Shown: piece by piece, positions 16,916 through 27,622 of the stretch
How positions within the stretch are numbered: position 1 is the stretch's first letter
Layout of the letters: each line of letters opens with the position of its first letter
IMG/VR virus record: IMGVR_UViG_3300031260_000108
Coordinates: 1-35,442 of that record
From: a virus
Length of the DNA stretch: 35,442 nucleotides
Strand: one strand, 5' to 3'
Made by a program: the position numbers and the translations under genes
Notes under the pieces: generated by a model
Told to the model about the DNA's origin: nothing
Databases searched by the model: none
Seen by the model: only the letters and a program-made list of their open reading frames with translations

Positions 16916-17623
16916 CTATCCCTCCATATCAGGGTGCCTGTACTCTGGCCTAAGCACCCCATCAACATATGATGCCCCCAGATGATCGAATTCACTATCA
17001 AAATAGGTAACCCACCTCGTCTTATCATACCCGAGAAGCCCTGAATAATCATCATAATGTCTGAGCAGAGGCAGGCCTTCATGGTATATGTATGCATATA
17101 TGTCCTCAAAACTCCAATCCCTTAGAGGGTAAGCCTCATGGGGGTCTCTGCGCGTGTCCAGGATCCTCCTTGTTCTTTTCCATCGTTTACGTGATTCATC
17201 AGCCCTGAAACCGAGGAGGACGAGGTCGAAGCCGTTGGCATCTATCAGGGATTTAAGTTCCACCCAAAAACTTGGGGGGATGCCTGGGATTTCCCTCTGG
17301 CTCAGCCTCCAACCTTCCTTCACCTTGAGGACTTTAAGGTTCTCTTTTTTCGCTCCGATCTTCATAGCATTCCTGAGTATCCTGTCCTTGATGTTGCGCG
17401 GGACGAATGCTGGGCCCCAGTCAGTGTGAACAACGTCAACGTCCTTTTCTATGAGGAGGGTTAAATGGAGGAGGACTGTGCTGTCCTTCCCTCCGCTGAA
17501 TGCAACGTATGGACGCCTGTAATCTTTGAAGAGTTTCTTGATGAATCTGAGGGTTTGGGCTTTGAGTTCCAGGAACTCGTCCCGGGTTGCGTAGATCTTC
17601 ATGGCTTCCTTGAATTTCCTCAT
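16916..17623 (-). CDS. cysH: CysH/PAPS-reductase-like adenine nucleotide alpha hydrolase (type IV-B accessory)
   Basis: PP-loop FSGGKDS, GFRADES and YPLRDWS motifs; no Cys residue in the protein. Confidence 0.9.
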   Translation of the reverse strand: MRKFKEAMKIYATRDEFLELKAQTLRFIKKLFKDYRRPYVAFSGGKDSTVLLHLTLLIEKDVDVVHTDWGPAFVPRNIKDRILRNAMKIGAKKENLKVLKVKEGWRLSQREIPGIPPSFWVELKSLIDANGFDLVLLGFRADESRKRWKRTRRILDTRRDPHEAYPLRDWSFEDIYAYIYHEGLPLLRHYDDYSGLLGYDKTRWVTYFDSEFDHLGASYVDGVLRPEYRHPDMEG

Positions 17624-18270
17624 CTTAGACCATTCATCCTTAGGTTAGTCATTAATTCTGCTATCTGTTCGAATTCCTTTTCTATCGCGTAGCATACGGC
17701 TCCAAGGTTCTCCGCGGCCATTATAGTAGCCCCTGAACCTGCGAATGGGTCGAGGATGATATCCCCAGGGACTACATAATGGCTGAGGAGGTGAGTTATC
17801 ATCGCGGGCGGTTTCGCCCATCCCTGATGGACATGTTTCATCCTCGACCCACCAGGTTCGTTCAGGTAGTAGGATTCGTTCATGGTTGAGTATAAGGGTT
17901 TATCAGTTCTGATGTGTTTTCTGCCGCCATTGAGGTGTACGATGTGGTATGAGTTAGGTATGGGTGTGAATATGCGCTTATTCGGTTTAGGCTTCATTAT
18001 TATCGTGTAATAATAGTTAACATAGTCATAGAATTCCTTTGTCAGGACTTTAACCTGTTCTGTTGATAAACAGATGAATGCAGCCCACTCATCATCCATG
18101 CACCTGAGGGCCTTGTTAAGCCAACTGAAGTCGTAGAGGTCAAATGGTGGGTCTGTGAAGAGGATGCCGGCCTTCTTATCATTGAGGAGAAGCTGGTAGG
18201 TGTCATCGTTGAATGCATCGCCATGTATGACCCTATGATCCTTGATTGGTGTCACAGCACCTGTTATCAT
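17620..18270 (-). CDS. DNA amino-methyltransferase (N6A/N4C, beta class)
   Basis: Catalytic motif IV DPPF precedes SAM-binding DPFAGSG; KP motif (WAKPP). Confidence 0.88.
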   Translation of the reverse strand: MITGAVTPIKDHRVIHGDAFNDDTYQLLLNDKKAGILFTDPPFDLYDFSWLNKALRCMDDEWAAFICLSTEQVKVLTKEFYDYVNYYYTIIMKPKPNKRIFTPIPNSYHIVHLNGGRKHIRTDKPLYSTMNESYYLNEPGGSRMKHVHQGWAKPPAMITHLLSHYVVPGDIILDPFAGSGATIMAAENLGAVCYAIEKEFEQIAELMTNLRMNGLR

Positions 18271-19016
18271 AGGGCCTCCCCTACTAGCTGATTCTTGGGG
18301 GCTATGCAGAGGTCTATGTTCCTCTTGTCCCAGTATGGTGGCTTATAGGCCATCTTCATAATCACCTGGCCCGCCCCTACAGGTAGGGGGACCTTCAGGC
18401 TTGTGGGGATGGGCCTCATCACCCCATACTCATCATGGTAGAAGCTATGATCCATCTCCGTCTCCCTGACCTTGAGTTTGAGGATTTTACCGCCGCCGAT
18501 GCCTGTCTTCTTCCCCAGGTGTGTGAGGTGTTTGAGGAGCCTCTCCACCTCCACTATGTCGCCACAGCCATAGAAAGTCACGGTGTCAGTGACTATTATT
18601 GGGTAGGTGATCATATGGTTCTTGTAGTGGCCGCTGCCTATACCATATGACCTGTTGAGTAGTTGAGGATGGTTCTCGATGAAGTAATCCTCGAAACGCT
18701 TATAGATGCGGGATGTTCTGAGCCTCGGGGCCCTATAGACGCCGACGCTGGCATGATACACGTCCCCCGTCCGCCTCAACGGGAGCTGCATGGAGCTGAA
18801 GTCGAATAGGTGGTTGGTGGGGATGTCATAGAAGTCCCCGCCGAGGGCCTCCCTGGTGCAGAGGTACTGGATGATCCCGTCGAGGTAGATCCATGCGTTC
18901 CCTGTGAATACTGGTGGTTTGACCCTGAATTCCGCCTTGAAGGGTGTGTGTGCATCCCCTCCTGGTTGGTAGGCGCTGATTTTATCCTGGATCCTGGCAG
19001 CAAGAGACATGATCAT
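18267..19016 (-). CDS. csf3: Type IV Cas5-family RAMP Csf3
   Basis: YHAS, FYGCGD, Gly-rich loop LGKKTGIGGG, RPIP and YKPPYW motifs; follows csf2. Confidence 0.88.
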   Translation of the reverse strand: MIMSLAARIQDKISAYQPGGDAHTPFKAEFRVKPPVFTGNAWIYLDGIIQYLCTREALGGDFYDIPTNHLFDFSSMQLPLRRTGDVYHASVGVYRAPRLRTSRIYKRFEDYFIENHPQLLNRSYGIGSGHYKNHMITYPIIVTDTVTFYGCGDIVEVERLLKHLTHLGKKTGIGGGKILKLKVRETEMDHSFYHDEYGVMRPIPTSLKVPLPVGAGQVIMKMAYKPPYWDKRNIDLCIAPKNQLVGEAL

Positions 19017-19858
19017 CGCCAGTTTGCCTGTAATTCATCAAGAAACTCTCTGATCAGGTCAGCCTTCTCCTCGACATACGAGAGGTATGTTGCCTCAGCA
19101 TCAGGGTCATAGTCATAGCGGATATCCAGTTTCCCGTACCCTGAACCGCTCTTCCCCCCGAGGTAGGGGCGTTCGCTCCACAGGTTCAATGCCCGGATGA
19201 AACATGATTCCTCAACAGGGTCAGTGTCTGTGAGTGTGAATTCATGATAGAACTTCGCACCCTTCACGATGACTTCGAACTCGTACTTCATCTGCGTCGC
19301 CTGCTCTCCATCCTCTCTGTCCTCCTTGTACTCCCTGAGACTATCAAGGCGGGTCCCGAAGTCCCTCGCCTTCAGGGAATAACTTGAAGGGCCATCGATG
19401 TCACAGTACTGTTTCTGCTGCCAGTAAAGTTCCTTGCAGATCGGTTCTGCAAGGTCCACCTTCAATTTGCCCTGGAGCATCTGATTGCCCAGGGCAGAAC
19501 CCCAGAGACTTGCTGGTGGGATGTACTTGCGGATCCCTGATTTGAGTTTCACGTCAATCATACCAGAGGATTTTGTGTTAGCCTCCAGGAGGCCCCCTGT
19601 GAAGAGAAAATGGTAGATCTTCGCTGATTTGAGGTCATAATCGAGTTGATCCAGGAAGTCCTGCATGACCAGGCGGCGGAGGTACCCCCTGATCGCATTC
19701 CCATGGATGTAGGGGACGTCCTCAACCCTCATCCCCTTCTCATCCTCTATGAGTGTGGGGAGTGTGAGTATGGGTTTTATCGTCCCATAGACTTCAGGGC
19801 CGCCGTGATGGATAGGTGTCCGGGCAGTTAACACTCCAGGGTACTTAACAGTCCTCAT
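19013..19858 (-). CDS. csf2: Type IV Cas7-family RAMP Csf2
   Basis: TARTPIHHG, GNAIRGYLRR, LFTGG, LWGSALGNQM and LGGKSGSGYG motifs. Confidence 0.93.
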   Translation of the reverse strand: MRTVKYPGVLTARTPIHHGGPEVYGTIKPILTLPTLIEDEKGMRVEDVPYIHGNAIRGYLRRLVMQDFLDQLDYDLKSAKIYHFLFTGGLLEANTKSSGMIDVKLKSGIRKYIPPASLWGSALGNQMLQGKLKVDLAEPICKELYWQQKQYCDIDGPSSYSLKARDFGTRLDSLREYKEDREDGEQATQMKYEFEVIVKGAKFYHEFTLTDTDPVEESCFIRALNLWSERPYLGGKSGSGYGKLDIRYDYDPDAEATYLSYVEEKADLIREFLDELQANWR

Positions 19859-20202
19859 ACTTCATCACCTTCATCCTCTGCTTTCTTCATTTTGAGTTTC
19901 TCAACAACTTCCAGGGCGAGTAGGACTGCGTAGTTGGTCTCGTGTCTGAGGAGGTTGAGTGCTTCGTCTTCGTTCTCTTTGAGTGTGTTTATGTCTTTGA
20001 GGCTGTGCTGGGTGAAGCTGACACCGCACATCCTGTTTAGTTCTTCTAGGAAGGATGTGATGGTGCTCATGCGGCTTGCTGCGCGCACACGGTCTGTGAA
20101 GTATGTGTACGCTGATTTCACACCAACTTTCTTCCATTCAATGTTCCTATACGTCATCGCAAGGCACTTTGCGAGGGCGTTTTCAGTCTTCTCATCAGTC
20201 AT
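19855..20202 (-). CDS. cas11: Cas11-like small subunit (start revised to 20202)
   Basis: All-helical ~115 aa between csf1 and csf2; GGAGGAGG RBS before the ATG at 20202. Confidence 0.7.
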   Translation of the reverse strand: MTDEKTENALAKCLAMTYRNIEWKKVGVKSAYTYFTDRVRAASRMSTITSFLEELNRMCGVSFTQHSLKDINTLKENEDEALNLLRHETNYAVLLALEVVEKLKMKKAEDEGDEV

Positions 20203-20203
20203 C

Positions 20204-20335
20204 CTATACGCCTCCTCCAAGTATTGCGGATATTAGGCCCAGGACTACGAAGAATAGTACTATTCCCAGGCAGATCATGGTCACCCATACCCCTATCCTG
20301 ACGAGGATGGGTGCCGGGTTCTTCTTTTGGGTCAT
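20204..20335 (-). CDS. Unannotated 43-aa membrane peptide MTQKKNPAPILVRIGVWVTMICLGIVLFFVVLGLISAILGGGV
   Basis: Translated by hand; GAGGTGA RBS; fills the csf1-cas11 gap; stop 1 nt before the cas11 ATG. Confidence 0.8.
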   Translation of the reverse strand: MTQKKNPAPILVRIGVWVTMICLGIVLFFVVLGLISAILGGGV

Positions 20336-20356
20336 CCCTTTTTCACCTCTCTAATA

Positions 20357-20980
20357 TTATGCCATGTCTATGAGTAACTCCCATGTGGGGTTACCCTTCA
20401 ATTTGTTTAGGGTGATGTTCAGGTTCCTGGCTTCCCTGACGGTCATGTCCTGTAGTTTCCCTAGGTTCACATCACCAGTCTTCATCTCCGTCTTACTGAT
20501 TCTGTATTTTTCTCTGAGCTCGTTAATCCATTCTATGGTCTGGACTGCTAATTCACGGCTTAGTGTATGTGTTTCCATGTCACAGGCTAATCTGATGATC
20601 TTCTGGTTGGGTTGGTTCAGGAGGCCGTCCATGATTATCCAGCCTATCTTCTTGTACGTCCTTGTCAGGTAGAGGTAGTATGGTTTGTCTGGTGGTTCTT
20701 TGAGGATCTGTGGGAGTTCTGGGCGTTTGAATGGGTGGAATTTGTCTTCTGTGAGGATCCACATTGTCCTGCGGAGTTTGTTGCTGTCTTTTTTGAGTGT
20801 CATGCAGTAGGGGCAGATGACGTCTCCTCTGCTTGTCTGGTCTGTTGTTGTGAAGGTTGTGCCGAGTCTTTTTTTGTGTCCTTGTCTGGTTTGTTGGTGG
20901 CATATGCAGCACGTTCCTTGTTCTTTGCCGGGGCTGGGTTCTTGTTTTGTGGCTTTGGTGTACATTGTGCTGAGTTTCAT
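20357..20980 (-). CDS. csf1: Type IV large subunit Csf1 (Cas8-like, Zn finger)
   Basis: CCICH...ICPYC zinc finger, RRTMWI and PPDKPY segments; first gene of the csf cluster. Confidence 0.82.
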   Translation of the reverse strand: MKLSTMYTKATKQEPSPGKEQGTCCICHQQTRQGHKKRLGTTFTTTDQTSRGDVICPYCMTLKKDSNKLRRTMWILTEDKFHPFKRPELPQILKEPPDKPYYLYLTRTYKKIGWIIMDGLLNQPNQKIIRLACDMETHTLSRELAVQTIEWINELREKYRISKTEMKTGDVNLGKLQDMTVREARNLNITLNKLKGNPTWELLIDMA

Positions 20981-22857: not shown

Positions 22858-23043
22858 ATGAGTACAGAGAAAAGGTTCAGGTTATCCCATATTCTTGGGA
22901 TGACCTTGAACAGACACGAAATAGTGGACAAGATGTCCCTTGATGAGTTCCTCAGGGAGTATGACATCACTCCCGAGGAATTCACAGCTCTCCAGAAGGC
23001 CCTTGTCCTGGGCCGGTGGAGAGTCCTTAGGAGGGAGGAGTGA
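22858..23043 (+). CDS. Hypothetical 61-aa protein
   Basis: GAGGTGAGATAG RBS; collinear with operon. Confidence 0.7.
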   Translation: MSTEKRFRLSHILGMTLNRHEIVDKMSLDEFLREYDITPEEFTALQKALVLGRWRVLRREE

Positions 23044-23059
23044 TCCGTGGGGTGGTGCT

Positions 23060-23197
23060 ATGAAATTAGAGGTGGTGATACATGACTTCATAGACAGTAT
23101 TTATCAATACTACTATGATGATCCTGATATGTTAGACTATGTTGCCATCTTCGCAGAAGCGTTAACCGATTTTGATATACATATCGAGTATCTGTAG
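23060..23197 (+). CDS. Hypothetical 45-aa acidic protein (start revised to ATG 23060)
   Basis: GGTGG RBS before ATG; followed by a T-tract. Confidence 0.6.
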   Translation: MKLEVVIHDFIDSIYQYYYDDPDMLDYVAIFAEALTDFDIHIEYL

Positions 23198-23221
23198 TGT
23201 TTTCCTTTTTCTTCTTTTTTC
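23198..23221 (+). terminator. Oligo-T archaeal terminator
   Basis: tgttttcctttttcttcttttttc directly after the last + strand early gene. Confidence 0.7.
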
Positions 23222-23233
23222 CCCCCATCTGTT

Positions 23234-23263
23234 ATAACTTATAACTTGTAAGTTATAAGTTAT
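23234..23263. repeat. Perfect 14-bp inverted repeat built from tandem heptamers (ATAACTT x2 - gt - AAGTTAT x2)
   Basis: Seen directly between convergent operons. Confidence 0.85.
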
Positions 23264-23266
23264 GAA

Positions 23267-24355
23267 TTAAAAGGTTCTAAGAACAGCATCGGCTACACAT
23301 TCTCCAATAGCCTTCACAGAATCATCTAAGTCAATATAGATCTCTACATCATTATAATACCCTGTAATATCCCCCCATCCTACCTTATATACATCAGAAC
23401 CTATTCTATCCCAATAAGCTCCAGCATCTTTTTCTTTCACATTCGGAGCCGCTCCATCTCCATAACCCTGTTTTATCCTCACCCCAGTCTCTGCTATACA
23501 TACAAGCAAATCAACAGCATTTATAAATCGTGCTATTATCTCCTTATCAATGCGACGATGCAACAAATCCATGACCACATTGTCTTTAATAGAATCTATC
23601 TTACCAAATATCTTCTCTACTCCACCTATATCAGCACAATAATCAATGTTATCAAACTCTTTAAAGAAAACCTCATCTTTAATATACTCAAATTCTGTCT
23701 TTATTTCCTCCCCAAGCAACCCTTCTACCTCTATAAAAACATCCCGTATTAACTGTTCATAATTCTCCCTAAATACCTGACATTTAAAAGAATATGTCAT
23801 CTCTTCAACCTCATTTAACACGATTACATCACTGATCATCTCCCTGATCACAGCCCTCACAGAATCAACAGTTTTAAGATCCTCCATTGTAACCTGACGA
23901 TCCAATTCACAGATAACCATGTTTATATCTTTATTTTTAAATTCCATAGTAATCACTCCATCTTTAGGGTCATAGGCAAACCTGTACTCTCTTTCTTCCC
24001 TGTATTTAACTGGTTTTAACTGTAATGAAGGTATATCATCCTCTCCCCTGTATATCGCCTCGGCAATCTGTTGTATCCTCTTGTCACAGGCTATAATGTC
24101 CCTGAGTTTCTCATGGACATATACCTCTGGAACATATTTATCACCAATCCCACACATTTTAAGTTCATCAACAATCCTATCCCTGACATCATCTATACCA
24201 TAATAATCTATCTGCTCCTCTTTAAGATCCCTAATATCCTTAGAAGAACCTAAAAGAACATCTAAATCATCATAGATCTGCAGACGGTCTTTTAAGGTAT
24301 CAAACCTTGACAAACGATACATTATAGCTTCCATCTTTTCATCCATACATATCAC
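23267..24355 (-). CDS. Hypothetical acidic protein, low GC; C-terminal half paralogous to the upstream ORF
   Basis: 362 aa ORF; by-eye alignment with 24352..24768. Confidence 0.8.
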   Translation of the reverse strand: MICMDEKMEAIMYRLSRFDTLKDRLQIYDDLDVLLGSSKDIRDLKEEQIDYYGIDDVRDRIVDELKMCGIGDKYVPEVYVHEKLRDIIACDKRIQQIAEAIYRGEDDIPSLQLKPVKYREEREYRFAYDPKDGVITMEFKNKDINMVICELDRQVTMEDLKTVDSVRAVIREMISDVIVLNEVEEMTYSFKCQVFRENYEQLIRDVFIEVEGLLGEEIKTEFEYIKDEVFFKEFDNIDYCADIGGVEKIFGKIDSIKDNVVMDLLHRRIDKEIIARFINAVDLLVCIAETGVRIKQGYGDGAAPNVKEKDAGAYWDRIGSDVYKVGWGDITGYYNDVEIYIDLDDSVKAIGECVADAVLRTF

Positions 24356-24768
24356 TCCTCAACAATACTACTATTAAGACGACCCATCTTCATATCAATG
24401 CCCGCCTCAGCCATATCATAAATAAAACTTACACAATTCATAAAAAACACGATCAAATCAACATCCACAGCCATATCCAGGAGACAATTAACAACCCTGC
24501 CACTCATCTCATCAAACCTACTCAGAATCATATCCTTTTCACGAAGCACCACCTCACTATCAAGACCCAAATCAATCATATCCAACTCATCAAAAACCTC
24601 ACCACTCATAATATACTCCATCTCAAACTTCAACCCATCAGGAACCAGACCATACACCCGCCTAAAAATCTCCTCAACAAACTCATCCCTATCCCCCCTC
24701 AAAAATATATCATACCTTTCATCAGAAACCAGACTATTAACCACACTACTATCAATCCTCTCATTCAT
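24352..24768 (-). CDS. Hypothetical acidic protein, low GC (start revised to 24768)
   Basis: Overlaps downstream gene by 4 nt; GAAGGTG RBS before MNERIDSS. Confidence 0.75.
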   Translation of the reverse strand: MNERIDSSVVNSLVSDERYDIFLRGDRDEFVEEIFRRVYGLVPDGLKFEMEYIMSGEVFDELDMIDLGLDSEVVLREKDMILSRFDEMSGRVVNCLLDMAVDVDLIVFFMNCVSFIYDMAEAGIDMKMGRLNSSIVEE

Positions 24769-24770
24769 AA

Positions 24771-25094
24771 CTACACCTTCACACAATCAATATCTTCAAT
24801 CTTCCAGATCTCACCACCAAACTCCCTAACCTGCTCCAGAGACAACTCCCTACCACGAAACTCCCTAGGAACACGAGGCAACACCACATGATAATACTCC
24901 ACACCCTTACGGAGCAACCTCTTGATGAGGTGGATGGGGAGGATGCCGTAGACAGCATCCCCCTTCTTCATGCGCATGATCATCTCATTACTAAGATGAC
25001 CTGCCACGAAGACGTCCCGGTCAAGGCCTTTACCATTCAGTTTAGCCCTCACCCAATCCACAGTACCCTGATGCCTTGTGATTATGTAATTCAT
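24771..25094 (-). CDS. csx16: Csx16-family CRISPR-associated protein, candidate cyclic oligoadenylate ring nuclease (start revised to 25094)
   Basis: IITRHQGTVDW, GHL, GDAVYGILPIHL, VEYYHVVLP and RGRELS match the Csx16 signature (SRHxGA.EW...GD.V.GTLPVHL...RG.ELS). Confidence 0.85.
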   Translation of the reverse strand: MNYIITRHQGTVDWVRAKLNGKGLDRDVFVAGHLSNEMIMRMKKGDAVYGILPIHLIKRLLRKGVEYYHVVLPRVPREFRGRELSLEQVREFGGEIWKIEDIDCVKV

Positions 25095-25351
25095 CACCAA
25101 CCACCACCTCTCTGCGCTATCTCCATCAGCACAGCCCAGCAGTGCTTGCAAACGAATGATGCCTCCGCCTTAAACCAGCGGTACTCATAGTCAGGGCAAT
25201 TACACTTGATCGTGGAATCAGTCACAAGGACACTGTACAGGTTATCCCCTGATTCTACCTCATAGAGACGACCCTCATCACATTCACCCTTGAATGTGGC
25301 CTTAAGCCTCCTCGCATTCCTAATCTTATTCATCCGAGTCAAAAACAACAC
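25094..25351 (-). CDS. SWIM zinc-finger protein
   Basis: CNCPDY...CKHCWAV. Confidence 0.85.
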   Translation of the reverse strand: MLFLTRMNKIRNARRLKATFKGECDEGRLYEVESGDNLYSVLVTDSTIKCNCPDYEYRWFKAEASFVCKHCWAVLMEIAQRGGGW

Positions 25352-25358
25352 CCTCCCT

Positions 25359-25380
25359 TCGTTATATGTTTATATAACGA
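25359..25380 (-). promoter_or_regulatory. TATA box inside a 9-bp inverted repeat, upstream of the SWIM-csx16 operon
   Basis: TCGTTATAT-gttt-ATATAACGA. Confidence 0.65.
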
Positions 25381-25402
25381 TGAATAAGGGCCCACTCAGA
25401 GG

Positions 25403-25978
25403 TTAAGGGCCCTTACGGTCGCCATGGTACTCATCATAGGCCTCCCAGACCTCATCGAGTTCCCCTGCACCATATGCTTGTATGTACCTCCTGACAGTCA
25501 TGTATCCGCCACCGAGGATCTTCATGAGCTTCAGGATACTCCACCCCTCCTCAACGTGTAGCTTGTAGGCTTTATGGAGCTCAAAGATGGTGAAGGGGCG
25601 GGGATGTTCCCACCCCACCTTCAAGAATCTGCCTTCCCTGTTCACACGCCACCTGTAAGGATAATCAAGTTTCCTCACGAGTTGACGTACAGACTTCTCA
25701 CTGATCCTCAGAGTCCTCGCGATCTCAGGGATGGTGTACCCATTCTTGTAGAGTCTGTGAACAGTCCTGGTGACCTTATCCATGTCCTTGAACTTGTGGA
25801 CTAGGCCATGCTTTGACAGGACTTTCCACACTCTCCCACGGCTTACTCCGAGGGCATCACAGATCTCCTTATATTCATAGCCCTCCTCTCTCAGCCGGAC
25901 TATGGAATCCTCGATCCTCTCTGATTCTCTCTTATTCAGCTCCCACCATTCTTTTGAGGCGAATTCAGCTGTGATCAT
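25403..25978 (-). CDS. Protein with three tandem HTH motifs
   Basis: YKEICDALGVSRGRV, TIPEIARTLRISEKSV and SILKLMKILGGGYMTV. Confidence 0.8.
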   Translation of the reverse strand: MITAEFASKEWWELNKRESERIEDSIVRLREEGYEYKEICDALGVSRGRVWKVLSKHGLVHKFKDMDKVTRTVHRLYKNGYTIPEIARTLRISEKSVRQLVRKLDYPYRWRVNREGRFLKVGWEHPRPFTIFELHKAYKLHVEEGWSILKLMKILGGGYMTVRRYIQAYGAGELDEVWEAYDEYHGDRKGP

Positions 25979-25984
25979 CCCACA

Positions 25985-26554
25985 TCACCTCAATTCGTGT
26001 TGTCTGGGAGCGTTCAGGCCGTGTTCGCGGTAGCCCCAACGACGGCCACCCCCACCTGATTCATCCTCTTCAAGGTAGCCCTGACAGGAGAGGGGTGATA
26101 TGACTCTTGTCACATATTCTTCCTCGGTGAGGTGATGGCCCTTGTACTTCCCATGGTCTGTCAGGACTTCGAAGAGTTCATGTGCTGTGAGTGGCTTGTC
26201 AGAGAGTTTAAGGGCCCTGATGGTGTCAATGTATAGTTCCGCCCAGACTGTCCTGGGTGCGGGGCTCTGATGGACTTGAACATTGACGTGTGGTTCGAGA
26301 CTGAATCTTGGACCTCTTGTAGTGTTATCCACCCTCACCATACCTTCACGTTTCAGTTGTGAGAGCGTGTATGCTACCATCTTCCTGGTCGGGGAGGATC
26401 TACTGTGCATCAGGCCTTCTTCGATGATCTTTTCGCAGATACCATCACTTGAGAGGCCTATCTCATCCCCGTATTTATCGACGATGTATAGGACGGCGTT
26501 TTTAAGGTTTCTGCGTCTTAGTTTCACGTTTGTGTTGATGTGGACTGTTGTCAC
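25985..26554 (-). CDS. Tandem winged-helix DNA-binding protein
   Basis: Two wHTH-like segments (VAYTLSQLKREGMV; KPLTAHELFEVL). Confidence 0.6.
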   Translation of the reverse strand: MTTVHINTNVKLRRRNLKNAVLYIVDKYGDEIGLSSDGICEKIIEEGLMHSRSSPTRKMVAYTLSQLKREGMVRVDNTTRGPRFSLEPHVNVQVHQSPAPRTVWAELYIDTIRALKLSDKPLTAHELFEVLTDHGKYKGHHLTEEEYVTRVISPLSCQGYLEEDESGGGGRRWGYREHGLNAPRQHELR

Positions 26555-26570
26555 GACAAATCCCTTCCCT

Positions 26571-27335
26571 TTATTCTCCTATGATCCGTGGGGCGAGAAG
26601 GAGATTCGCCTTAACCCCATTGGACGAGTATTCTAATCTGATGGGTTTCTCATTGTCGATATGGATTGTGACGGTCTCAAACCTGGGTAGGATGAGTGGT
26701 TTGAGTTTTTCTATTGTGAATCGGCTTAAGTATTCTCCATCCACTCTCTCCCCATGCACATGGCGGAAGATGACCTGGAAAGGATTGTAATCATTGCATG
26801 TCTTGAGATGTAGATAGTCCTCATCAACTTTTATGTCTATACTCTCTGATGATGTGAGGGCTGCGTCTTTGAAGAAGGATGTGATGATGTCTGTGTTGAC
26901 TGTGAGGGTTGCGTTTAATTGGAATGTGTCTATTTGTGCTGTTGGTGTGGCGTATTCTGTGTCAGGGCAGGGTATTGTGAACCTGGTTTCGCCTTTCTCT
27001 GTTGACCTGGTGATGATGAGGGATGTGGTGTTCTCTTCATCATCGGTTTTGTTGGTGATGGTGATTGTGTCTTCTCTTCGTGTGAGTTTCAGGATGTTGT
27101 TGAGTTCTTCAACAGGGATTATGATTTCTTCTTCCTCTGGGACTTTGTATGTTGTGAAGAATTCTGGTGTGATCTCTATGTTGTAGTAGGTGATGTGTGA
27201 GCCGTCCATTCCGGTTATGGTGAGGGATTCTGGCGTGGCGTGGATGGTGGCGATGTCAACGTTTATCTGTGTTAACATCTGTGTTATGCTGTGAAGGTCT
27301 GATGGGTTGTCTGTCTCGAGTTTTATGGCTTTCAC
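26571..27335 (-). CDS. pcna: Viral PCNA sliding clamp
   Basis: 254 aa; ITGMDGSHI, PIRLEY and terminal LLAPRI are PCNA hallmarks. Confidence 0.92.
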   Translation of the reverse strand: MKAIKLETDNPSDLHSITQMLTQINVDIATIHATPESLTITGMDGSHITYYNIEITPEFFTTYKVPEEEEIIIPVEELNNILKLTRREDTITITNKTDDEENTTSLIITRSTEKGETRFTIPCPDTEYATPTAQIDTFQLNATLTVNTDIITSFFKDAALTSSESIDIKVDEDYLHLKTCNDYNPFQVIFRHVHGERVDGEYLSRFTIEKLKPLILPRFETVTIHIDNEKPIRLEYSSNGVKANLLLAPRIIGE

Positions 27336-27622
27336 TGGTTCATCCCTCCTATGAGGAGGTCTTCTATTGTTATTGTGTCCATTATCTCCTTTATCTTCTT
27401 GATTGACTCTGTTCTTGTCCTGTATACTCCTACTTCGAGGGTTGTCTGACTCATCCCACCGGTTGTGGGTGTGAAGTGGGGTTGGAATTCTTCGATGACT
27501 GCAATGCTGACTTTGTATCCTTTCGCGATTTTTTCGAGTGTGGGTTTGACTTTGATTGAGTACCCAAGATAGTGGGTTATTTCTTTAAATCCCCATAATC
27601 TCTCTTTTGTGTTTTTATTCAT
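27332..27622 (-). CDS. Hypothetical protein
   Basis: 96 aa, GAGGTGAGATAG RBS, overlaps pcna start. Confidence 0.7.
   Translation of the reverse strand: MNKNTKERLWGFKEITHYLGYSIKVKPTLEKIAKGYKVSIAVIEEFQPHFTPTTGGMSQTTLEVGVYRTRTESIKKIKEIMDTITIEDLLIGGMNQ

What the first reader, a model, noticed from the sequence alone, without database searches (positions are those of the whole stretch)
24771..25094. Stand-alone viral Csx16: candidate ring-nuclease anti-CRISPR against type III systems
Seen: a 107-aa protein with the Csx16 signature (TRHQG..DW, GD.VYGILPIHL, RGRELS) in an accessory operon with no type III genes nearby. Established: Csx16 is associated with type III CRISPR loci and has been proposed as a cyclic oligoadenylate ring nuclease; viruses use the unrelated AcrIII-1 family to destroy cA4. 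Inference: the virus captured a host ring nuclease as an anti-type III weapon, a second CRISPR-derived gene in the same genome.
Basis: partly seen in the sequence, partly recalled or inferred. Interest (0 to 1): 0.82.

Follow-up and report, generated by a model that had tools for sequence, protein, structure and literature searches.

The report
Csx16 ring nuclease in methanogen virus
A tailed virus of the methane-producing archaeon Methanothermobacter carries an intact copy of Csx16, an enzyme family already shown to destroy the cyclic tetra-adenylate alarm signal of type III CRISPR immunity. It is most likely an untested anti-CRISPR of a kind that is already recognised.

Summary
ORF 24771-25094 (minus strand, 107 aa) is a clear Csx16: Pfam PF09652 E 5.9e-31, TIGR02620 above its cut-off, PADLOC Csx16 E 6.5e-33. 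It keeps every residue conserved across the family, and its AlphaFold model is confident (pLDDT 94.9) and Rossmann-like.

The window is a roughly complete tailed virus related to Methanothermobacter virus PhiF3. It has no type III genes, but it does carry a type IV-B module.

- Csx16 was shown in 2024-25 to be a cA4-specific ring nuclease.
- The same paper counted Csx16 in two phage genomes.
- Drs3 and PhiF3 already carry annotated copies.
- This scan has flagged viral Csx16 on other DNA several times.

- The gene recurs in many PhiF3-like viruses.
- It is under purifying selection (dN/dS about 0.18).
- It sits behind a conserved TATA-like element.
- It is about 80% identical to an orphan chromosomal Csx16 of Methanothermobacter, which nests inside the mostly viral clade. 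"Captured from the host" is therefore not established.

M. thermautotrophicus Csm6 responds best to A4-type activators, which fits an anti-type III role. No activity or anti-CRISPR effect has been tested. Verdict: a new member of a known kind, of moderate to low interest.

The parts
24771..25094 (-). csx16, 107 aa (alternative GTG start at 25097); predicted stand-alone cA4 ring nuclease
   Evidence: PF09652 E 5.9e-31; TIGR02620 57.4 bits; PADLOC Csx16 6.5e-33; family-conserved R7 H8 H33 D46 G50 L52 P53 R80 G81 L84 all present; AF2 pLDDT 94.9; dN/dS 0.18 against sister virus L009
25094..25351 (-). 85-aa SWIM zinc-finger protein. Its TGA stop overlaps the csx16 ATG by one base, which suggests translational coupling
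   Evidence: PF04434 SWIM E 4.6e-05; 44% identical to PhiF3 ORF3; overlap read from the sequence; absent from sister virus L009
25357..25385 (-). Conserved TATA-like element (TTATATAA at 25370-25377), a candidate archaeal promoter for SWIM-csx16-ORF138-ORF362
   Evidence: Sequence. The same roughly 28-nt element lies directly upstream of csx16 in L009 and upstream of SWIM in L008. Promoter function is inferred, not shown
24352..24768 (-). ORF138, an acidic protein of unknown function. Its ATG lies 2 nt after the csx16 stop
   Evidence: No Pfam, NCBIfam, PHROG or PADLOC match; paralog of ORF362 (BLASTP 3e-11); found only in the window and L008
23267..24355 (-). ORF362, an acidic protein of unknown function and the last gene of the block. 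Its C-terminal half is paralogous to ORF138

Best explanation
The gene encodes a true Csx16-family protein carried by a tailed virus of Methanothermobacter that is related to PhiF3. By homology with the characterised Csx16 enzyme, it most likely forms a small homodimer that binds cyclic tetra-adenylate (cA4) and cleaves it to linear products.

cA4 is the second messenger made by Cas10 of the host's type III CRISPR system when it detects viral RNA, and it switches on the Csm6 RNase. If the virus expresses Csx16 together with its replication genes, it would remove cA4 before Csm6 is activated. That would make it an anti-CRISPR of the ring-nuclease type, comparable to AcrIII-1.

Shown here: family membership, intact conserved residues, fold, viral context, purifying selection, and recurrence in related viruses. 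Inferred: dimerisation, cA4 cleavage, timing of expression, and the anti-CRISPR effect.
For: Family membership. All nearly invariant family residues are present. The model is a confident five-strand Rossmann-like fold.

Virus identity: CheckV 99%; portal, TerL, tail tube and a pseudomurein endoisopeptidase with a PMBR repeat; TerL 44-47% and endoisopeptidase 53-55% identical to PhiF3, whose host is M. thermautotrophicus.

Csx16 is a cA4-specific ring nuclease in vitro and was seen in two phage genomes (PMC12409355). M. thermautotrophicus Csm6 is most strongly activated by A4>P (10.1101/153262) and is listed as cA4-dependent (PMC6755085).

The gene is kept in the sister virus L009, although the flanking accessory genes differ there. 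It occurs in at least six PhiF3-like virus lineages, next to homologs of the PhiF3 left-end genes. dN/dS is 0.18 between viruses.

The gene is tightly packed in a minus-strand block with the replication genes and lies behind a conserved TATA-like element. Short exact-match contigs from metatranscriptome libraries of two studies span the SWIM/csx16 junction (X16) and the csx16/ORF138 junction (X15); a third library covers ORF138 and ORF362. This is weak evidence, because DNA carry-over is not excluded.
Against: No activity, binding or in vivo data exist for this or any other viral Csx16.

The host strain is unknown, so whether it has a type III system rests on literature for M. thermautotrophicus Delta H.

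Methanothermobacter already has a chromosomal Csx16 about 80% identical. A viral copy would therefore help only through dosage or timing.

A ring nuclease does not stop RNA cleavage by the type III complex or any Cas10 HD nuclease activity.

20 of 20 IMG/VR records with a related TerL lack Csx16, so it is an accessory gene rather than a general requirement.

Fold searches gave only generic Rossmann-like matches.
Confidence: 0.6

Rival explanations
1. The viral Csx16 serves tolerance rather than attack. In a carrier or lysogenic state it would dampen the host's type III response to viral transcripts, protecting both the virus and its host from Csm6 toxicity. This is the same housekeeping 'off-switch' role as cellular ring nucleases.
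For: The host genus keeps a nearly identical orphan Csx16 far from any cas gene or array, which suggests a regulatory role acting in trans. Anaerodiviridae have temperate members and proviruses (PMC8651126). Cellular ring nucleases reset signalling (PMC12409355).
Against: I saw no integrase among the window ORFs scanned. PhiF3 and Drs3, which also carry Csx16, are described as virulent or lytic (PMC8540584). The biochemical step is the same as in the main reading, so sequence alone can hardly separate the two.
Confidence: 0.15
2. The protein binds cA4 but works mainly as a sponge, or as a very slow nuclease, sequestering the signal instead of destroying it. This is what has been found for Csx15.
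For: Csx15, a related small CARF-like protein, is a good cA4 sponge and a very slow ring nuclease (PMC13148439). Nothing in the sequence measures turnover rate.
Against: The tested Csx16 fully degraded a 100-fold excess of cA4 in 1 h (PMC12409355). The viral protein keeps the conserved His and Arg residues. Type III systems make large amounts of cOA, which makes sponging costly (discussion in PMC13148439).
Confidence: 0.1
3. Csx16 works with the virus's own type IV-B Csf module, or on another nucleotide signal, and has nothing to do with host type III cA4.
For: Csx16 and type IV-B homologs occur together in the window, L008 and L009. In L029, L030 and L031 they are directly adjacent.
Against: Type IV-B has no Cas10 cyclase, so no cOA link is known (established knowledge of type IV systems). 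PhiF3, Drs3 and three IMG/VR records carry Csx16 without Csf2. The tested Csx16 was specific for cA4 (PMC12409355).
Confidence: 0.07
4. The gene is a passenger or a decaying remnant with no current function.
For: It is an accessory gene, missing from many related viruses.
Against: The frame is intact and all conserved residues are present. dN/dS is 0.1-0.2. It is kept across diverged viruses whose neighbouring genes turn over.
Confidence: 0.03

Closest known systems
Csx16 (PF09652 / TIGR02620), the CRISPR-associated stand-alone cA4-specific ring nuclease (Hoikkala et al. 2025, PMC12409355)
   Same: Same family by three profile libraries, same size (about 100 aa), same conserved residues, and a Rossmann-like single domain.
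   Different: This copy is encoded by a virus with no type III locus nearby. Its activity is untested. It is only 25-45% identical to most family representatives.
Csx16 genes of Methanobacterium virus Drs3 (ORF3) and virus PhiF3 (ORF30), annotated in GenBank
   Same: Stand-alone Csx16 in tailed viruses of Methanobacteriales. PhiF3 is related to the window virus.
   Different: 42% (PhiF3) and 35% (Drs3) identity. Drs3 falls in a different Csx16 clade. In those records the gene lies at a genome end; here it sits between the replication genes and two acidic ORFs.
Orphan chromosomal Csx16 of Methanothermobacter (for example O26561 of M. thermautotrophicus Delta H, WP_048175300)
   Same: 76-81% amino-acid identity and about 81% nucleotide identity. 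It forms a well-supported clade with the window protein.
   Different: It sits in the chromosome between a PEP-utilising enzyme gene and a 286-aa unknown, near HepT/MNT and NERD genes. No viral or cas genes lie within 10 kb. Synonymous divergence from the viral copy is about 0.65, so the transfer is not recent.
AcrIII-1 / Crn2 (DUF1874), the viral cA4 ring nuclease anti-CRISPR (Athukoralage et al. 2020)
   Same: The proposed mode of action is the same: a small virus-encoded enzyme that destroys cA4 to disarm type III effectors.
Crn4b homologs in phages and plasmids (Chi et al. 2025, PMC12830947)
   Same: Another CRISPR-associated ring nuclease family found in mobile elements and proposed, but not proven, to act as an anti-CRISPR.
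   Different: Unrelated fold and broad cOA specificity.

Membership tests
Csx16 (PF09652 / TIGR02620) | Match to the family profile above the curated cut-off over nearly its full length | tested here: met
   Pfam 107 bits vs 25, profile positions 1-89 of 91; NCBIfam 57.4 vs 46.35; PADLOC Csx16 E 6.5e-33
Csx16 (PF09652 / TIGR02620) | Conserved polar residues thought to bind and cleave cA4 (TRH near the N-terminus, a second His, GD, G-LP, RG-EL) | tested here: met
   In an 83-sequence alignment, H8, G50 and P53 are invariant and R7, H33, D46, L52, R80, G81 and L84 are at least 90% conserved. The window protein has all of them
Csx16 (PF09652 / TIGR02620) | Small single-domain Rossmann-like (CARF-like) fold with a five-stranded sheet | tested here: met
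Csx16 (PF09652 / TIGR02620) | Homodimer with a shared cA4 site | not tested
The published model is an AF3 dimer (PMC12409355)
Csx16 (PF09652 / TIGR02620) | cA4-specific cleavage to linear products | not testable with these tools
   Shown for one cellular Csx16 only (PMC12409355)
Csx16 (PF09652 / TIGR02620) | Location in or beside a type III CRISPR-Cas locus | tested here: not met
   No cas10, csm or cmr gene in the 35-kb virus. This is a feature of context, not of the protein
Viral ring-nuclease anti-CRISPR (AcrIII type, by function) | Encoded by a virus or other mobile element | tested here: met
   CheckV 99% complete virus record with capsid, tail and lysis genes
Viral ring-nuclease anti-CRISPR (AcrIII type, by function) | Host has a cOA-signalling type III system whose effector uses the same messenger | tested here: inconclusive
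   Literature only: MtCsm6 of M. thermautotrophicus is activated best by A4>P and listed as cA4-dependent. The host strain of this virus is unknown, and I could not obtain a handle to any Methanothermobacter genome
Viral ring-nuclease anti-CRISPR (AcrIII type, by function) | Relieves type III immunity in vivo | not testable with these tools
   No experiment exists for any viral Csx16
AcrIII-1 / Crn2 (DUF1874) | Sequence or structural match to DUF1874 | tested here: inconclusive
   The Pfam scan at E up to 0.1 returned only PF09652. No AcrIII-1/2J6B row appeared in the Foldseek PDB, VIA-align wide or BFVD lists. Weak matches can be missed

The most novel reading that the evidence does not exclude
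Csx16 is primarily a viral gene in the Methanobacteriales virus world. It would be an old counter-defence gene of PhiF3-like viruses, sometimes placed directly beside a virus-borne type IV-B CRISPR module as a 'CRISPR-parts' anti-defence island. On this reading, Methanothermobacter took its chromosomal orphan Csx16 from such a virus and domesticated it as a regulator of its type III system acting in trans. This would parallel the proposed virus-to-host origin of Crn2 from AcrIII-1.
Probability: 0.3. Interest if true: 0.55.

Novelty: new member of a known kind. Interest (0 to 1): 0.33.

Why it matters
So far AcrIII-1 is the only viral ring nuclease proven to work as an anti-CRISPR. Csx16 would be a second (or third) enzyme family used this way, and the first for viruses of methanogens, where no anti-CRISPR has been demonstrated. 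A 2021 survey found no clear anti-CRISPR homologs in archaeal tailed viruses (PMC8651126).

The virus occurs in anaerobic digesters, sludge and wastewater metagenomes from at least seven independent studies. Its counter-defence genes therefore bear on virus-methanogen dynamics in biogas systems.

The idea itself is already published in outline, and the experiment is straightforward. The value here is a good, well-characterised candidate and its evolutionary context, not a new principle.

Tried and rejected
As a result, contexts of database homologs came from metagenome loci instead, and no dimer was modelled.

Scans that found nothing useful:
- Single-protein scans of viral contigs and genome contigs found nothing.
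- The 83-row alignment was too diverse to scan with.
- The second genome-contig scan returned only a partial hit in a Rhodocyclaceae MAG.

Host genome: I could not obtain a handle to any Methanothermobacter genome. Host type III content and spacer matches to this virus were therefore not tested.

Structure and family searches:
- PDB sequence search with the family profile gave no hit.
- Foldseek PDB and BFVD gave nothing at E <= 0.001.
- PHROGs has no family for this protein.

The 286-aa neighbour of the cellular Csx16 shows no similarity to ORF138 or ORF362 (BLASTP E 0.24-0.27). It also has no tblastn match in any viral locus I held.

Metatranscriptome contigs left 25352-26185 uncovered. With low-depth contigs this says nothing about transcript boundaries.

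Supplementary tables of PMC12409355 are not held. I could not confirm that its two Csx16-bearing phage genomes are Drs3 and PhiF3, nor which Csx16 was assayed.

The bacterial promoter/terminator scanner was not used, because it does not apply to archaea.

Full report
**1. Observation**

- It matches Pfam PF09652 (Cas_VVA1548) at E 5.9e-31, 107 bits against a cut-off of 25, over profile positions 1-89 of 91.
- It matches NCBIfam TIGR02620 'CRISPR-associated protein Csx16' at 57.4 bits against a cut-off of 46.35.
- It matches PADLOC Csx16 models at E 6.5e-33.

A full HMMER scan of 1.84 billion cluster representatives found 553 relatives at E <= 0.001. I aligned 83 stand-alone members. H8, G50 and P53 are invariant, and R7, H33, D46, L52, R80, G81 and L84 are at least 90% conserved. 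The window protein has every one of them.

AlphaFold2 run with that alignment gives a confident model (pLDDT 94.9, pTM 0.85) of alternating strands and helices, a small Rossmann-like domain.

**2. What the window is**

The genome search identifies the window as a whole IMG/VR virus record of 35,442 bp, 99% complete by CheckV.
- It encodes a Mu-type portal, a large terminase, a tail tube protein and a long tape-measure-like protein. It also encodes a C39-like peptidase with a pseudomurein-binding repeat, which is a pseudomurein endoisopeptidase and marks viruses of Methanobacteriales.
- Its terminase is 44-47% identical to that of PhiF3, its endoisopeptidase 53-55%, and its tape measure 36%. 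PhiF3 is an isolate that infects Methanothermobacter thermautotrophicus.
- No type III gene appeared among the ORFs scanned.
- The block 16916-20980 is a type IV-B module by PADLOC: Csf1 3.7e-28, Cas11 1.1e-23, Csf2 9.7e-69 and Csf3 1.1e-46, plus a methyltransferase and a PAPS-reductase-like protein.

**3. Local anatomy**

csx16 lies in a tightly packed minus-strand block running from 29933 to 23267. The gene order is:
- a 657-aa replication-type protein (homologous to Drs3 ORF11);
- two small ORFs;
- a PCNA homolog;
- two HTH proteins;
- a SWIM zinc-finger protein;
- csx16;
- ORF138;
- ORF362.

The SWIM stop overlaps the csx16 ATG by one base, and the ORF138 ATG follows the csx16 stop after 2 nt.

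The only sizeable gap is 51 nt upstream of the SWIM ORF, and it holds a TTATATAA box. The same roughly 28-nt element lies directly upstream of csx16 in a sister virus that has no SWIM gene. It is therefore a plausible archaeal promoter for this cassette. This is inference only.

ORF138 and the C-terminal half of ORF362 are paralogs (BLASTP 3e-11). Neither matches any library.

**4. Relatives of the gene**

*Isolated viruses.* tblastn against 50,697 phage records found Csx16 only in PhiF3 (42% identity) and Drs3 (35%). Both copies are already annotated as Csx16/Cas_VVA1548.

*Near-identical and sister viruses.* A metagenome scan returned 62 loci.
- L008 is the same virus (Csx16 100% identical).
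- L009 is a 35,991-bp sister virus with conserved gene order and Csx16 at 81% identity. It lacks SWIM, ORF138, ORF362 and half of the IV-B module. Csx16 is therefore kept while its neighbours turn over.

*Other PhiF3-like viruses.* Comparing further loci with PhiF3 shows a repeated arrangement: Csx16, then a small ORF homologous to the PhiF3 left end, then PhiF3 ORF1, then ORF2. It occurs in four separate lineages (L005/22/23, L025/26/28, L021, L029/30/31). L019 and L020 are near-identical to PhiF3 in their tail genes.

In L029, L030 and L031, homologs of the IV-B genes lie between Csx16 and ORF1, so the two CRISPR-derived elements are adjacent there. PhiF3, Drs3 and three Csx16-bearing IMG/VR records lack Csf2.

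*Not universal.* None of 20 IMG/VR records with a related terminase carries PF09652, including five that are at least 90% complete. The same search does find the gene in the window. Csx16 is thus a recurrent accessory gene tied to the PhiF3-type early region, not a universal one.

**5. Cellular relatives and direction of transfer**

The closest non-viral relatives (76-81% identity) are annotated Csx16 proteins of Methanothermobacter, including O26561 of strain Delta H. They are seen on complete 1.7-Mb chromosomes.

On two large metagenomic contigs (120 and 248 kb) this copy lies between a PEP-utilising enzyme gene and a 286-aa unknown. CobN, PAS histidine kinases, a HepT/MNT pair and a NERD protein are nearby. 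No viral homolog, cas gene or repeat array lies within 10 kb. It is an orphan.

In a maximum-likelihood tree of 140 sequences:
- The window group and the cellular group are neighbours inside a 17-row clade (SH-aLRT 96).
- The earliest branch of that clade is an IMG/VR virus (L004).
- That clade sits in a 39-row clade (98) made up largely of the viral lineages above.
- Drs3 and L006 fall elsewhere, so viruses hold Csx16 from at least three lineages.

The tree is short (107 columns), built with the quick method, and unrooted. Type III-linked Methanobacteriales copies may be missing from my sample.

With those caveats, the pattern fits long residence of Csx16 in these viruses with exchange to or from the host. 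It does not fit a simple recent capture by this virus. Synonymous divergence between the viral and cellular copies is about 0.65.

An earlier follow-up in this scan reached the same view from the Delta H side (e1-2521366). I reproduced the orphan context and the nesting. I did not reproduce its claim about the neighbouring acidic protein.

**6. Function**

Established knowledge from papers:
- Csx16 was predicted to be a ring nuclease in 2020 (summarised in PMC8284326).
- It was shown in 2024-25 to degrade cA4 completely, but not cA6 or cA3, without added metal. The same study counted Csx16 in two of 28,114 phage genomes (PMC12409355).
- Viral ring nucleases are accepted anti-CRISPRs through AcrIII-1, and the same role has been proposed for phage Crn4b (PMC12830947).
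- M. thermautotrophicus carries a type III system whose Csm6 is most strongly activated by A4>P (10.1101/153262), and it is listed among cA4-dependent systems (PMC6755085).

The messenger specificity of the enzyme family therefore matches the effector of the likely host genus.

The viral gene is under purifying selection: dN/dS is 0.18 between the window and L009, and 0.1-0.2 overall.

Near-identical DNA of this region occurs in sludge, bioreactor, wastewater, soil and mixed-culture metagenomes from at least seven studies besides the probable source sample.

Short exact-match contigs from metatranscriptome libraries span the SWIM/csx16 junction (X16) and the csx16/ORF138 junction (X15); these come from two studies. 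A third library (X18) covers ORF138 and ORF362. This is only a weak hint of transcription.

The most likely mechanism is a dimeric enzyme, co-expressed with the replication genes, that removes cA4 and so keeps Csm6 silent. Dimerisation, catalysis, timing of expression and the in vivo effect are all inferred.

**7. Comparison and novelty**

The protein is a member of the Csx16 family by every test I could run. The only unmet feature is genomic association with a type III locus, and that describes context, not the protein.

It works like AcrIII-1 but is not a member of that family by any test here.

The idea that viruses carry Csx16 is already in print as a count. The Drs3 and PhiF3 genes are annotated, and this scan has reported viral Csx16 on other DNA several times.

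New here are the family-wide picture in PhiF3-like viruses, the conserved upstream element, the turnover of neighbouring genes, the occasional adjacency to a viral type IV-B module, and the relation to the host's orphan copy.

I rate it a new member of a known kind, with interest about 0.33.

**8. Limits**

I could not reach any Methanothermobacter genome through the genome search, so host type III content and spacer matches rest on the literature or remain untested.

Noticed in passing
window 16916-20980 (-): Virus-borne type IV-B module: Csf1, Cas11, Csf2 and Csf3 by PADLOC, with a DNA methyltransferase and a PAPS-reductase-like gene, and no array. Sister virus L009 keeps only the csf1, cas11 and csf2 homologs. 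Homologs of the whole set lie directly beside csx16 in L029, L030 and L031.
   Followed up: partly
window 23267-24768 (-): ORF138 and the C-terminal half of ORF362 are paralogs (BLASTP 3e-11). Both are acidic and match no library. They occur only in this virus and L008, and are absent from sister virus L009. They are candidates for further counter-defence genes.
   Followed up: partly
window 25357-25385 (-); L009 7978-8008: A roughly 28-nt TATA-like element (TTCATCGTTATA..ATATA.CGAAG) is conserved upstream of SWIM-csx16 in the window and directly upstream of csx16 in L009. It is probably the cassette's promoter.
   Followed up: partly
window 25094-25351 (-): The SWIM zinc-finger protein, apparently translationally coupled to csx16, is 44% identical to PhiF3 ORF3 (annotated there as similar to psiM100 ORFA). 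It is a conserved small protein of Methanothermobacter viruses with unknown function.
   Followed up: no
L010 9601-14253; L011, L012, L013: The Methanothermobacter chromosomal orphan csx16 sits in a small island with a 286-aa unknown, a HepT/MNT toxin-antitoxin pair and a NERD nuclease-related protein. The 286-aa neighbour is only 55% identical in L015, although Csx16 there is much better conserved.
   Followed up: partly
proteins P0011, P0015, P0017, P0020, P0024, P0026; P0048, P0063-P0065, P0086: The Csx16 family includes tandem two-domain forms of about 205-228 aa (possible single-chain pseudo-dimers). It also includes fusions to proteins of 400-690 aa.
   Followed up: no
L010 844-943; L011 1-100: An exact 50-nt tandem duplication lies at the start of the CobN gene in the Methanothermobacter contigs.
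   Followed up: no
window 23000-27400: Near-identical DNA (at least 92% of sampled 31-mers) is present in sludge, bioreactor, wastewater, soil and mixed-culture metagenomes from at least seven studies besides the probable source sample. The virus is widespread in engineered anaerobic systems.
   Followed up: partly
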